Shown here: one piece after another, positions 50,927 to 53,137 of the stretch
Position numbering within the stretch: the first letter of the stretch is position 1
Layout: each line of letters begins with the position of its first letter
Assembly (NCBI RefSeq): GCF_045037415.1
Contig: NZ_CP173438.1
Origin: Escherichia coli
Lineage (GTDB): Bacteria; Pseudomonadota; Gammaproteobacteria; Enterobacterales; Enterobacteriaceae
Strand: one strand, 5' to 3'
DNA: 64,000 nucleotides
The notes under the pieces: model-generated
Told to the model about the DNA's origin: nothing
Databases searched by the model: none
What the model saw: only the letters and a program-made list of their open reading frames with translations
Position numbers and translations under genes: made by a program

Positions 50927-51868
50927 TTACATAGATGTTTCGTTTAATTCTTCCCGACGAACGCTGTAAACGTCGGTTGCTTTTGCCAGCAGTTCGTCAT
51001 CATCTGAAAGTTTTTGTGCAATGTATTTGTAAGCCTTATCCAGTTCGGAGACAGTGCTGTAATTCATCGCTGCGCTGGTAAAGGCCATCAGCATTTCTTC
51101 TGGATCACGGCTGTCCGATTTACGCGTTTGCTCATCAGGCTTTTTCGCTGGTTTAGCGTTGATCAGACTGTTCATTCCCGCAGCAGTGGTCGTTTGCGGA
51201 GTAATGTCTCGCTCAACGCGCGGTGCCGTTTCCTGTAATTCGTCTGGGGTGTAGACGCCCATGATTACGTCAGGACAGTGCAGGCGAGACCAGCGTTTTG
51301 TCGCAAGGTATGCGAGTTGTTGTTTCGGATCACTGGCCCAAAGTGTGGAGTTTCTTACCTGTGCTTGAGACAGCATTAACTCAAGCACTCGAGGTTGATC
51401 CTCGCCCTTCATGGTTGCCCATACGCGAACACCGCAGCCTTCTTCGTCTTTTAGAGTCCAGCCTGGTGCGATATATGGATTGCCGTTTTTGGATGTTTTC
51501 TCAACAAACTTACCGATCACGCGTTCCCACGGCCCGAACCACTCGTAGTTGATGCGATCTTTTGTTGGCGACATCGTTGAGATAACTGCGTTTACTAATT
51601 GGGCTTCATAACCTAGCGTGCCGTTCACAACATGGGTTTTCTGAGCCACGGCAAACGGGTTCATTCCCCACTGCGCAGCCTGCATTGCCACGGCCATGCA
51701 ATCAGCTGGTTTCCCGGCGAGGTGCGCCGGTACCGTTACGCGGCTTTGCGCCATTACCTCGGCGAATTTCATCAGTTGGTTCAAGCCGTCTGGGCTGAAA
51801 ATAGTTGCAGCAGTTCCAGCGATTGCTGTGTCTACTGGTGCGTTGATGTTTGCGATGTCGTTGCTCAT
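50927..51868 (-). CDS. phage single-strand annealing protein (RecT/Red-beta-like)
   Basis: about 313 aa from the ATG at 51868, which overlaps the upstream exonuclease stop (ATGA); paired with a YqaJ-type exonuclease as in lambdoid recombination modules; family assignment is from memory. Confidence 0.55.
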   Translation of the reverse strand: MSNDIANINAPVDTAIAGTAATIFSPDGLNQLMKFAEVMAQSRVTVPAHLAGKPADCMAVAMQAAQWGMNPFAVAQKTHVVNGTLGYEAQLVNAVISTMSPTKDRINYEWFGPWERVIGKFVEKTSKNGNPYIAPGWTLKDEEGCGVRVWATMKGEDQPRVLELMLSQAQVRNSTLWASDPKQQLAYLATKRWSRLHCPDVIMGVYTPDELQETAPRVERDITPQTTTAAGMNSLINAKPAKKPDEQTRKSDSRDPEEMLMAFTSAAMNYSTVSELDKAYKYIAQKLSDDDELLAKATDVYSVRREELNETSM

Positions 51869-52686
51869 ATGTACATATCCTGTTTGCGTGCCCACTCAGG
51901 GCGTTTAATGATTTCCACACCGCCCCATTCATCATTGATGCGGCATTCGTGATAGGTATTCAGATCCCGGCGGAACAGAGCGTGCCCGGCATCGACATCC
52001 TGCGCATCCAGCTCGAACACGCGTACCGGATACCGACCACAATCAATGCTTTCGCTCACGGCAAGAAAGAAAAAACCATGCGGCTGACCAGTAACCCTCA
52101 TTGCGCCTTCGCGGTACATTGCGTCCTGCACGTGGTAGCGGAATTCCTCGATGTGGCGTGCAAAACGGTCCATATCTGCAACCTTTTTCACGTCGACGAT
52201 CACGTTGTGCTCGTTCAGCCATTTGTCTGGACGAATTCGGCACAACTCCCCCGTCTCTTCATCGTTCCAGTACATTGATGCTTCGCAGTAACCAGGTGCT
52301 TCCAGCATCCAGCGTGCCGCCGGGTGAGCCATTGCGCTATCACGCATCAGCTCCAGTTTCCGCCACTGCTCGGCATCAAGTACCGTAATCCCCATATCCG
52401 CCACATCACGAAGAAATTCCTCTTCGTCAGCTTTACCTTGTTTCGTCCGACGATCGAATTTCGGTGAAACAATGAAGCGTTTGTCGAACTCTCCAGGCTC
52501 CAGAAGCAGACAGTGCAATGCGGTTCCCATATCCAGTGCAGACTTTTTCTCTTCGTCTTCTGGTGCTGCCTGAACCCATTTAAGAAGCGCCGGATTCTTG
52601 GCAACCATGTCCAGTTGCGACTTACTCACGCCGTCACCGGCGTGGTAGTCTTCGTTGCTGATGTCGAAATAAATTCCCGGTTTCAT
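51865..52686 (-). CDS. phage PD-(D/E)XK exonuclease (YqaJ / lambda Exo-like)
   Basis: 273 aa; motif ...RIRPDKW...IVDVKKV consistent with a D...(D/E)-x-K nuclease core; upstream of and coupled to the RecT-like gene. Confidence 0.65.
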   Translation of the reverse strand: MKPGIYFDISNEDYHAGDGVSKSQLDMVAKNPALLKWVQAAPEDEEKKSALDMGTALHCLLLEPGEFDKRFIVSPKFDRRTKQGKADEEEFLRDVADMGITVLDAEQWRKLELMRDSAMAHPAARWMLEAPGYCEASMYWNDEETGELCRIRPDKWLNEHNVIVDVKKVADMDRFARHIEEFRYHVQDAMYREGAMRVTGQPHGFFFLAVSESIDCGRYPVRVFELDAQDVDAGHALFRRDLNTYHECRINDEWGGVEIIKRPEWARKQDMYI

Positions 52687-52982
52687 GCCGCGTCCCTCTG
52701 CCCATCAAGCTGATCAGCCAGATCCCAGCGGGCGATAATTGCCATTGCCTCGCGCCGGTAGGCATCCATTAGTTCTTCGAACTCAGGGCTGTCTTTAGCG
52801 GCCTCCAGTACTTCCTGGCGAACGCCTTTAACTGTTACAACGTCGAAAGTTGATGCCAGTTGATGAAGCCGGATACTCTCAATCAGTTCAACTTGTCGGT
52901 CATATAGCTGTTCTGACAGACGGTAGTCCTTGTCGAATGCCAGCATGATTTTTTGAAGATTTTTCTGCTGATTAACGTTCAT
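52683..52982 (-). CDS. hypothetical prophage early protein
   Basis: ORF track 52683-52997; ATG at 52982 (MNVNQQKNLQ...) with stop/start overlaps on both sides. Confidence 0.5.
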   Translation of the reverse strand: MNVNQQKNLQKIMLAFDKDYRLSEQLYDRQVELIESIRLHQLASTFDVVTVKGVRQEVLEAAKDSPEFEELMDAYRREAMAIIARWDLADQLDGQRDAA

Positions 52983-52984
52983 TA

Positions 52985-53137
52985 TCAGCCCTCCCATATC
53001 TCGTTATCGTTGGCCACATCGCGAGCTTCTTTGCTGACGAAAGCCCACTTAATGCCTTCCTGTAAGGTGCGGAACTTCCAGCTCATGAATCCGCATGCAG
53101 TAACGCAGTACCAACCGTTGATGATTTTCCACTGCAT
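52985..53137 (-). CDS. small ORF (50 aa), first gene of the leftward early operon
   Basis: below the 60-aa track threshold; MQWKIINGWYCVTACGFMSWKFRTLQEGIKWAFVSKEARDVANDNEIWEG; GAGGT RBS 8 nt upstream; sits immediately downstream of two operator-like palindromes. Confidence 0.4.
   Translation of the reverse strand: MQWKIINGWYCVTACGFMSWKFRTLQEGIKWAFVSKEARDVANDNEIWEG

What the first reader, a model, noticed from the sequence alone, without database searches (positions are those of the whole stretch)
50927..53137. Early-left operon genes are chained by ATGA stop/start overlaps
The ATGA overlap recurs at five junctions: 50-aa ORF to hypothetical (52982/52985), hypothetical to exonuclease (52683-52686), exonuclease to RecT-like (51865-51868), methyltransferase to phosphatase (49577-49580), and on the right arm 58433-58436. 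This indicates tight translational coupling and supports the chosen internal start codons over the longer track ORFs.
Basis: seen in the sequence. Interest (0 to 1): 0.3.

Follow-up and report, generated by a model that had tools for sequence, protein, structure and literature searches.

The report
Overlapping stop/start codons in prophage operon
Neighbouring genes in the early operon of an ordinary E. coli prophage share four-base ATGA stop/start overlaps, a very common and well-described bacterial and phage gene arrangement that here mainly helps to place start codons correctly.

Summary
The window from about 47.6 kb to 64 kb is a phiV10/epsilon15-like (Uetakevirus) prophage next to guaA in E. 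coli. Four of the five reported ATGA junctions are real: 52686-52683, 51868-51865, 49580-49577 and 58433-58436. The fifth (52982/52985) is not an overlap. It reads TGAtaATG, with a 2-nt spacer.

- AlpA->38-aa membrane ORF, ATGA at 50632-50629.
- That ORF->PerC, GTGA at 50519-50516.
- PerC->methyltransferase, ATGACTAA, an 8-nt overlap.
- Three more NTGA junctions on the right arm.

The ATGA tetramer itself is not enriched. The gene spacing is: 9 of 24 prophage junctions sit at -4, against 0 of 27 host junctions in the same window.

In 80 related viral contigs the exonuclease->RecT ATGA is kept in 79. The exception is phiV10 itself, where one extra A fuses the two genes.

The internal ATG starts for the 99-aa protein, RecT, methyltransferase and phosphatase are supported by:
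- conservation;
- Shine-Dalgarno strength;
- PGAP annotation;
- for the phosphatase, the lambda phosphatase structure.

For PerC the opposite holds: the longer GTG ORF is the conserved form. Translational coupling is a reasonable inference but was not tested.

Verdict: real, ordinary and already known.

The parts
53171..53199 (-). PL-like sigma-70 promoter candidate (TTGACA-17-AATTAT) in front of the operon. It lies downstream of the repressor-gene terminator at 53251-53270.
   Evidence: Consensus scan, 10 of 12 matches. Position is analogous to lambda cI-terminator-PL. Function was not tested.
52985..53137 (-). First gene, a 50-aa protein of unknown function (PHROG 898).
   Evidence: PGAP CDS in identical genomes. 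Present in all 80 related loci.
52980..52987 (-). Junction 1: TGAtaATG with a +2 spacer. It is not an ATGA overlap.
   Evidence: The same 2-nt gap occurs in 49 close relatives. Diverged relatives have GTGA/ATGA overlaps or an inserted gene here.
52683..52982 (-). 99-aa protein of unknown function (PHROG 856, matched 1-99 of 99).
   Evidence: Start is supported by SD -10.7 kcal/mol and by relatives with a stop directly upstream.
52683..52686 (-). Junction 2: ATGA (-4), 99-aa ORF -> exonuclease.
   Evidence: The 99-aa ORF ends in ATGA in all 75 loci that have it. In 65 loci the exonuclease follows; in 10 an inserted gene starts at the same ATGA.
51865..52686 (-). PD-(D/E)XK exonuclease, RecE-like (Pfam DUF3799; PHROG 412 'exonuclease VIII').
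51865..51868 (-). Junction 3: ATGA (-4), exonuclease -> RecT.
   Evidence: Conserved in 79 of 80 loci at 73-100% RecT identity. The only exception is phiV10, where an extra A fuses the genes.
50927..51868 (-). RecT-family single-strand annealing protein, 313 aa.
   Evidence: Pfam RecT, 2e-44. All 80 tblastn matches begin at residue 1.
50900..50918 (-). Conserved GC-rich stem-loop (GCGGCGC-cacgt-GCGCCGC) in the 49-nt RecT-AlpA spacer. It has no U tract and separates the two overlap-chained blocks.
   Evidence: Searches show compensatory changes such as GCGGGGC/GCCCCGC and GTGGCGCC/GGCGCCAC. No Rfam match. Not called as a terminator. Role unknown.
50629..50877 (-). AlpA-family helix-turn-helix regulator, 82 aa. 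It probably initiates on its own, with the second-strongest SD of the operon starts (-8.9 kcal/mol) and the most accessible start.
50629..50632 (-). Additional ATGA (-4) junction, AlpA -> 38-aa membrane ORF.
   Evidence: ATGA in 70 and GTGA in 3 of the 74 related loci where the ORF was found.
50516..50632 (-). 38-aa hydrophobic ORF (phiV10 p35 homologue; PHROG 17484 'membrane protein'). PGAP does not annotate it.
   Evidence: Weak SD of -2.0 kcal/mol, so it is the best candidate for strict dependence on upstream termination.
50516..50519 (-). Additional GTGA (-4) junction, 38-aa ORF -> PerC.
   Evidence: All diverged relatives have ATGA at this position.
50220..50519 (-). PerC-family activator in its 99-aa form, starting at GTG 50519. 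PGAP starts it at ATG 50471 and phiV10 RefSeq at the ATG equivalent to 50486.
   Evidence: The N-terminal motif xKLxRLEKYH is conserved, while Met12 and Met17 are not. PHROG 868 is matched 1-99 of 99. SD is -7.0 against +0.4 and -4.0 kcal/mol.
50220..50227 (-). ATGACTAA (-8) junction, PerC -> methyltransferase.
   Evidence: TATGACTAA is kept in all loci, including those where a different gene follows.
49577..50227 (-). MT-A70 family methyltransferase, 216 aa.
   Evidence: The alternative GTG 50239 is absent in 24 of 66 loci.
49577..49580 (-). Junction 4: ATGA (-4), methyltransferase -> phosphatase.
   Evidence: Present in 24 of 24 loci that carry the phosphatase.
48921..49580 (-). Lambda-type Ser/Thr phosphatase, 219 aa. 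It is the last gene and is convergent with the integrase (47662-48918, +).
   Evidence: Aligns residue 1 to residue 1 with PDB 1G5B.
58433..58436 (+). Junction 5 on the right arm: ATGA (-4) between a 58-aa and a 119-aa ORF of unknown function.
55439..55442 (+). Right arm GTGA (-4), replication initiator (O-like/DnaT-like) -> P-like helicase loader.
56692..56695 (+). Right arm ATGA (-4), DUF1064-like 117-aa ORF -> 202-aa HNH-endonuclease-like ORF that PGAP does not annotate.
61082..61085 (+). Right arm GTGA (-4), small terminase -> the 491-aa ORF that follows it. By position this is presumably the large terminase, but PGAP calls it hypothetical.

Best explanation
These are genuine gene boundaries in the leftward early operon of a phiV10/epsilon15-like prophage.

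The operon appears to be transcribed as one polycistronic mRNA from a PL-like promoter at about 53199-53171. It falls into two blocks of genes joined head to tail:
- 50-aa ORF (+2) 99-aa ORF (-4) exonuclease (-4) RecT
- then a 49-nt spacer containing a conserved hairpin
- AlpA (-4) 38-aa membrane ORF (-4) PerC (-8) methyltransferase (-4) phosphatase

At an NTGA junction, a ribosome finishing the upstream gene stops at UGA with the next AUG or GUG two bases behind it. An SD sequence usually lies inside the end of the upstream gene. The ribosome can therefore reinitiate, or a new one can load on mRNA just unfolded. This ties downstream output to upstream translation and leaves no untranslated gap.

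Shown here: the spacing, its conservation, the start sites, and the absence of predicted internal terminators. Inferred from published work on -4 junctions: the coupling itself.
For: - Junction sequences.
- PGAP starts in 100%-identical genomes agree.
- Conservation in 80 related viral contigs: exonuclease->RecT ATGA in 79 of 80; ATGA at the end of the 99-aa ORF in 75 of 75; AlpA->38-aa ORF NTGA in 73 of 74; methyltransferase->phosphatase ATGA in 24 of 24.
- Accessory genes inserted in relatives carry ATGA on both sides.
- SD energies favour the junction starts over every alternative.
- The lambda phosphatase structure fixes the phosphatase N-terminus.
- A promoter-like site lies upstream, and no terminator-like site lies on the coding strand inside the operon.
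- -4 spacing occurs at 9 of 24 prophage junctions and 0 of 27 host junctions in the same window.
- Literature: NTGA (-4) is the most common spacing of co-directional prokaryotic gene pairs, with -1 and -8 also enriched. Coupling in E. coli is most efficient from -4 to +3 nt (PMC12548453). Coupling by termination-reinitiation was shown experimentally for E. coli overlapping pairs (PMC6728339).
- Classical recombination modules have the same layout: lambda bet->exo -4 and Rac recE->recT -8.
Against: - Coupling was not measured.
- Most downstream starts have their own SD (-4 to -11 kcal/mol) and average predicted accessibility. They could initiate independently.
- Thirteen of the 24 starts that follow a co-directional gene in this prophage read NTGA, whether or not they overlap a stop. 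The review PMC12548453 notes that -4 spacing evolves easily, because a start codon already supplies three of the four bases. Some of the pattern may therefore be a cheap by-product of genome compaction rather than a selected coupling device.
- One claimed junction is +2, not -4.
Confidence: 0.8

Rival explanations
1. The overlaps are a neutral consequence of genome compaction and mosaic gene exchange. Starts followed by A (ATGA) act as ready-made stops for whatever gene is placed upstream. Each gene is translated from its own ribosome-binding site, with no meaningful coupling.
For: - Thirteen of the 24 starts that follow a co-directional gene in this prophage read NTGA even when not overlapping.
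- Nearly all junction starts have a usable SD and ordinary predicted accessibility.
- The ATGA tetramer is not enriched.
- Inserted cassettes of unrelated genes fit into the same junctions.
- The review PMC12548453 attributes the abundance of -4 spacing to ease of evolution.
Against: - The exonuclease->RecT junction is held at exactly -4 in 79 of 80 loci across 27% protein divergence.
- The 38-aa ORF has almost no SD (-2.0 kcal/mol), yet is conserved with an NTGA start.
- Published reporter work shows that such E. coli pairs are usually coupled (PMC6728339).
Confidence: 0.3
2. The longer GTG-initiated ORFs are the translated forms, and the ATGA coincidences are irrelevant. These are RecT from 51895, phosphatase from 49700, methyltransferase from 50239 and the 99-aa ORF from ATG 52997.
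For: - The frames are open upstream, and a start codon is present in most close relatives.
- For PerC the longer GTG form is indeed the right one.
Against: - RecT: the -9 GTG/ATG is forced by the exonuclease Glu-Trp codons. It sits directly after an in-frame TGA, is lost in 12 loci and has no SD.
- Phosphatase: homology to lambda phosphatase starts exactly at ATG 49580.
- Methyltransferase: the alternative GTG is missing in 24 of 66 loci.
- 99-aa ORF: the alternative ATG has SD -1.8 against -10.7 kcal/mol. Diverged relatives have a stop immediately upstream of the homologous start.
Confidence: 0.04
3. Exonuclease and RecT are really one fused RecE-RecT polypeptide, as annotated in phage phiV10, and the ATGA 'junction' in the window is a frameshift artefact.
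For: phiV10 RefSeq and O157 typing phages 9 and 10 carry a single 1761-nt CDS. PHROG 561 is modelled on the fused form.
Against: - The fusion is caused by one extra A (CGCAAAC -> CGCAAAAC) 17 nt before the ATGA.
- It is absent from the other 79 viral loci and from all 223 E. coli complete genomes that carry this junction.
- Two separate genes is the ancestral and general state.
Confidence: 0.02

Closest known systems
-4 (NTGA) overlapping co-directional gene pairs with translational coupling by termination-reinitiation (Huber et al. 2019, PMC6728339; Brown & Wade 2025, PMC12548453)
   Same: - Co-directional genes whose TGA stop shares two bases with the next ATG or GTG.
- An SD sequence inside the upstream gene.
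- -8 and near-zero spacings mixed in.
- Enrichment inside operons.
   Different: Nothing structural differs. Dependence of downstream translation on upstream translation has not been measured for this operon.
Lambda Red (bet-exo) and Rac RecET recombination modules in PL-type early-left operons
   Same: - An exonuclease and a single-strand annealing protein encoded side by side with overlapping stop and start: lambda bet->exo -4, exo->orf60a -4, Rac recE->recT -8 ATGACTAA.
- The module lies downstream of the repressor gene and a leftward early promoter.
- A lambda-type Ser/Thr phosphatase is also present.
   Different: - Gene order is exonuclease then RecT, as in Rac and unlike lambda.
- The exonuclease is a short 273-aa DUF3799/PD-(D/E)XK protein rather than the 866-aa RecE.
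- No Gam homologue was recognised; the two small upstream ORFs have unknown function.
- No N-type antiterminator was identified.
Escherichia phage phiV10 / Salmonella phage epsilon15 (genus Uetakevirus) early-left region
   Same: 98% DNA identity to phiV10 over 3.7 kb, with the same gene order from the repressor to the methyltransferase.
   Different: - The window has separate exonuclease and RecT genes, where phiV10 has a 1-nt insertion that fuses them.
- The window carries a phosphatase after the methyltransferase, where phiV10 has a DUF1382 gene.

Membership tests
-4 NTGA overlapping gene pair (translationally coupled pair) | Two co-directional protein-coding genes, with the stop TGA of the first and the start NTG of the second sharing the tetramer NTGA. 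| tested here: met
   Met at 52686-52683, 51868-51865, 49580-49577 and 58433-58436, and additionally at 50632-50629 and 50519-50516. Not met at the claimed 52982/52985 junction, which is TGAtaATG (+2).
-4 NTGA overlapping gene pair (translationally coupled pair) | Both partners are real genes, and the NTG is the true start of the downstream gene. | tested here: met
   Pfam/PHROG hits for both partners. Start conserved in 73-100%-identical relatives. PGAP agrees. PDB 1G5B alignment for the phosphatase.
-4 NTGA overlapping gene pair (translationally coupled pair) | Both genes lie on one transcript. | tested here: inconclusive
   A consensus scan finds one promoter-like site upstream (53199-53171) and no terminator-like site on the coding strand within 48921-53137. 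There are no transcript data.
-4 NTGA overlapping gene pair (translationally coupled pair) | Translation of the downstream gene depends on translation and termination of the upstream gene. | not testable with these tools
   Needs reporter fusions with upstream premature stops, or ribosome profiling. SD and accessibility calculations do not discriminate.
Phage exonuclease + RecT-type annealase recombination module (RecET/Red-like) | A RecT/Redbeta-superfamily single-strand annealing protein. | tested here: met
   Pfam PF03837 RecT, E = 2e-44, residues 37-217.
Phage exonuclease + RecT-type annealase recombination module (RecET/Red-like) | An adjacent co-transcribed 5'-3' dsDNA exonuclease of the PD-(D/E)XK type. 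| tested here: met
   Pfam PF12684 DUF3799 (PDDEXK-like), 1e-22. PHROG 412 'exonuclease VIII', 3.5e-127. Activity was not tested.
Uetakevirus (epsilon15/phiV10-like) prophage | Nucleotide-level similarity and synteny with phiV10/epsilon15 across the early region. | tested here: met
   98.4% identity over 85% of the 4.4-kb query to phiV10, with the same gene order. Structural genes of the window were not compared.

The most novel reading that the evidence does not exclude
The NTGA junctions may act as more than translational joints. They could be fixed in-frame docking points for cassette exchange in this phage family.

In relatives, accessory genes sit between the 99-aa ORF and the exonuclease, or between PerC and the methyltransferase. 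These include a 45-72-aa ORF, an orf60a-like 52-59-aa ORF and larger genes, and they carry ATGA or ATGACTAA on both sides.

Separately, the one-base insertion in the phiV10/typing-phage lineage may have produced a working single-chain exonuclease-RecT recombinase.

Neither idea was tested. A simple microhomology signature was looked for: the first codons of the exonuclease tracking presence of the cassette. It did not hold.
Probability: 0.15. Interest if true: 0.3.

Novelty: already known. Interest (0 to 1): 0.08.

Why it matters
It matters little beyond annotation. Stop/start overlaps of this kind are the commonest spacing of neighbouring genes in bacteria and phages, and lambda's and Rac's own recombination genes are arranged the same way.

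The practical value is that the junction rule, checked against 80 relatives, fixes start codons and reveals annotation errors:
- The PerC activator should start at GTG 50519 (99 aa), not at the ATGs chosen by PGAP or by the phiV10 RefSeq record.
- A conserved 38-aa membrane ORF and a 202-aa HNH-like ORF are missing from the PGAP annotation.
- The 'RecE-RecT fusion' annotated in phiV10 is a private one-base insertion of that laboratory phage lineage, not a property of the family.

Tried and rejected
1. **ATGA enrichment.** The tetramer is not over-represented in the operon: 34 against 28.5 +/- 4.6 in shuffles. Only its placement at gene ends is non-random.

2. **Occlusion of coupled starts.** I tested whether mRNA structure hides the coupled starts, which strict coupling would predict. 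Mean unpaired probability of the -15..+5 region was 0.36-0.60 for junction starts against a background of 0.42 +/- 0.11. This is inconclusive. The value for the first gene is unreliable, because the fold included sequence upstream of the likely transcript start.

3. **RecT N-terminus by structure.** No solved structure matched by sequence.

4. **Microhomology origin of junctions.** The exonuclease N-terminus (MKPG or MN[TP]G) does not track presence of the upstream cassette. The methyltransferase N-terminus does differ between the two classes: MTKKY when directly after PerC, and a different third residue (mostly MTGKY) when after a cassette. However, a simple crossover in ATGACT does not reproduce the observed junction. 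I left this as speculation.

5. **Rfam.** No credible RNA family in 48800-54400.

6. **Programmed frameshifting at exonuclease/RecT.** Rejected. The window has only AAA, not a slippery heptamer, and the fused form needs a real extra base.
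Full report
**Context**

The 4.4-kb region 48900-53300 is 100% identical to prophages in several E. coli chromosomes, for example NZ_CP018991 and NZ_CP146595. It is 98% identical to Escherichia phage phiV10, genus Uetakevirus, the epsilon15 group.

In the window the prophage begins just after guaA, with the integrase at 47662-48918 (+), and runs to the window end.

The finding lies in the leftward early operon on the minus strand. Upstream is a helix-turn-helix repressor gene (53291-53875, -) with a terminator-like hairpin at 53270-53251. A promoter-like site, TTGACA-17-AATTAT, follows at 53199-53171. This is the same layout as lambda cI-terminator-PL.

**Genes, by Pfam and PHROGs**

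| Coordinates (-) | Product |
|---|---|
| 53137-52985 | 50-aa ORF, unknown function |
| 52982-52683 | 99-aa ORF, unknown function |
| 52686-51865 | PD-(D/E)XK exonuclease (DUF3799, 'exonuclease VIII') |
| 51868-50927 | RecT |
| 50877-50629 | AlpA-type regulator |
| 50632-50516 | 38-aa membrane ORF (phiV10 p35), absent from PGAP |
| 50519-50220 | PerC-type activator |
| 50227-49577 | MT-A70 methyltransferase |
| 49580-48921 | lambda-type Ser/Thr phosphatase |

**The observation**

Reading the minus strand, ATGA with an in-frame upstream TGA and a downstream ATG is present at 52686-52683, 51868-51865 and 49580-49577. On the plus strand it is present at 58433-58436.

The first claimed junction is different. 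The sequence GGGCTGATAATGAAC has its stop at 52987-52985 and its start at 52982-52980. That is a 2-nt gap, not an overlap. So four of five junctions are confirmed.

- AlpA->38-aa ORF is ATGA (50632-50629).
- 38-aa ORF->PerC is GTGA (50519-50516).
- PerC->methyltransferase is ATGACTAA (-8, 50227-50220).

On the right arm there are three further NTGA junctions:
- 55439-55442, replication initiator->P-like loader.
- 56692-56695, DUF1064-like ORF->HNH-like ORF.
- 61082-61085, small terminase->the following 491-aa ORF.

**Is it more than chance?**

The tetramer itself is not enriched: 34 on the coding strand against 28.5 +/- 4.6 in dinucleotide shuffles. The non-random feature is where genes end and begin.

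| Region of the window | Co-directional junctions | At -4 | Any overlap |
|---|---|---|---|
| Prophage | 24 | 9 | 14 |
| Host (annotation; sequence differs at 2 of 47,000 positions) | 27 | 0 | 0 |

Fisher p = 4e-4.

**Comparison with relatives**

A peptide-pattern scan of viral contigs with RecT returned 80 loci at 73-100% RecT identity. I mapped all nine operon proteins onto them and read each junction.

- **Exonuclease->RecT** is ATGA in 79 of 80 loci.
- **The 99-aa ORF** ends in ATGA in all 75 loci that have it. In 65 the exonuclease follows. In 10 an extra 45-72-aa gene starts at that same ATGA and is itself joined to the exonuclease by another ATGA.
- **AlpA->38-aa ORF** is ATGA in 70 loci and GTGA in 3.
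- **Methyltransferase->phosphatase** is ATGA in 24 of 24.
- **TATGACTAA** at the end of PerC is invariant, even when a different gene follows. These are orf60a-like 52-59-aa ORFs, themselves followed by further ATGA-linked genes.

The overlap architecture is thus a conserved property of the whole operon family, including its variable cassettes.

**Start codons**

- **RecT.** The alternative GTG 51895, nine codons upstream, lies directly after an in-frame TGA. It is created by the exonuclease codons GAR-TGG (Glu-Trp), which is why it appears as GTG or ATG in many relatives. Ten loci have a stop between it and the ATG, and two lack it. Its SD score is +0.4 against -4.1 kcal/mol for the ATG.
- **Phosphatase.** The 259-aa GTG form aligns to lambda phosphatase (PDB 1G5B) only from residue 41, which is the ATG 49580 product aligned 1:1.
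- **99-aa ORF.** ATG 52982 has SD -10.7 against -1.8 kcal/mol for ATG 52997. In two diverged loci the homologous start has a stop immediately upstream. PHROG 856 is matched 1-99 of 99.
- **Methyltransferase.** GTG 50239 is absent in 24 of 66 loci.
- **PGAP** made the same choices in identical genomes.
- **PerC is the exception.**
  - Every diverged relative has ATGA at the stop of the 38-aa ORF.
  - From there the peptide (M)xKLxRLEKYH... is conserved.
  - Met12 (the phiV10 RefSeq start) and Met17 (the PGAP start) are replaced by L/E/Q/A and Q/K.
  - PHROG 868 is matched 1-99 of 99 by the long form.
  - The GTG has the better SD.
  - So here the longer GTG ORF is right. The junction rule predicts it, but the rule 'internal ATG over longer GTG' does not.

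**Mechanism**

Published work establishes four points:
- NTGA (-4) is the commonest spacing of co-directional prokaryotic genes.
- -1 and -8 spacings are also enriched.
- Coupling in E. coli is most efficient from -4 to +3 nt (PMC12548453).
- E. coli overlapping pairs tested with reporters are usually coupled by termination-reinitiation, with a variable SD contribution (PMC6728339).

By that standard the operon consists of two blocks in which ribosomes can pass from gene to gene. A 49-nt spacer separates the blocks, and AlpA, with a strong SD and the most accessible start, probably initiates de novo. The +2 junction also falls inside the efficient window.

The pairing of the exonuclease with its annealase by overlap is the same as lambda bet->exo (-4) and Rac recE->recT (-8, ATGACTAA).

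The coupling is inferred, not shown. Most downstream genes have their own SD, and the predicted accessibility of their starts is average. Thirteen of the 24 starts that follow a co-directional gene in this prophage read NTGA regardless of overlap. A neutral 'compaction and easy evolution' reading therefore remains a live partial rival.

**The phiV10 'RecE-RecT fusion'**

phiV10 RefSeq annotates one 586-aa protein. Alignment shows a single extra A (CGCAAAC -> CGCAAAAC) 17 nt before the ATGA. It moves the exonuclease frame into the open stretch of the RecT frame.

The same base is present in the separately deposited records of O157 typing phages 9 and 10 (Cowley et al. 2015, PMC4429339). It is therefore probably real rather than a sequencing error.

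It is absent from the other 79 viral loci. It is also absent from all 223 complete E. coli genomes that carry this junction, where every match is 70/71 or lower. The split, ATGA-linked state is the norm. PHROG 561 is modelled on the fused form.

**Verdict**

This is a real but ordinary feature of a known kind. The start-site inference is right for the genes named, but the stated rule fails for PerC. Coupling is plausible and untested.

Noticed in passing
window 50516-50632 (-): A conserved 38-aa hydrophobic ORF (phiV10 p35 homologue, PHROG 17484) is not annotated by PGAP in identical E. coli genomes. It is ATGA-linked to AlpA and GTGA-linked to PerC, and has almost no Shine-Dalgarno sequence.
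   Followed up: yes
window 50220-50519 (-): The PerC activator start is probably mis-annotated. The conserved N-terminus and the ATGA in diverged relatives point to GTG 50519 (99 aa), not ATG 50471 (PGAP, 83 aa) or ATG 50486 (phiV10 RefSeq, 88 aa). In strain A1.S1.18 the gene is additionally flagged as frameshifted.
   Followed up: yes
L002 (phiV10) 4416; window equivalent about 51885 (-): One extra A in an A-run fuses the exonuclease and RecT into a 586-aa protein in phiV10 and O157 typing phages 9 and 10 only. It is absent from 79 other viral loci and 223 E. coli genomes. PHROG 561 ('RecT-like') is built on the fused form, so exonuclease-only proteins hit a 'RecT' family.
   Followed up: yes
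window 50900-50918 (-), in the 49-nt RecT-AlpA spacer: A conserved GC-rich hairpin (GCGGCGC-cacgt-GCGCCGC) lies right after the RecT stop. Relatives show compensatory changes (GCGGGGC/GCCCCGC, GTGGCGCC/GGCGCCAC). It has no U tract and no Rfam match. It may be an mRNA processing, stabilising or attenuation element that splits the operon into two blocks.
   Followed up: partly
window 56692-57300 (+): A 202-aa ORF with HNH-endonuclease similarity (PHROG 1271, 4e-23; weak Pfam HNH_3) is ATGA-linked to the upstream DUF1064-like gene. PGAP leaves it unannotated in both identical genomes examined.
   Followed up: partly
window 57413 (+): The window has T where NZ_CP146595 has G. This turns codon 4 of the 82-aa gene 57404-57652 into a stop (MAS*). 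It is the only difference in 10.7 kb of the right arm.
   Followed up: partly
L016, L061, L067, L062, L065, L066, L070, L083 (relatives): Accessory genes inserted between the 99-aa ORF and the exonuclease, or between PerC and the methyltransferase, carry ATGA/ATGACTAA on both sides. The small gene after PerC (MTNPHDN...) resembles lambda orf60a (MTHPHDN...), which also follows lambda exo with a -4 overlap.
   Followed up: partly
window 63221-63297 (-): A tRNA-Arg (anticodon TCT) lies inside the prophage, between the terminase genes and the portal gene. It is next to a Gp49-family gene on the opposite strand to the late genes.
   Followed up: no
window 58794-58928 (+): A DUF551 gene fragment is annotated as a pseudogene by PGAP. 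The neighbouring small ORFs match only parts of longer PHROG profiles, which suggests a mosaic and partly decayed region on the right arm.
   Followed up: no
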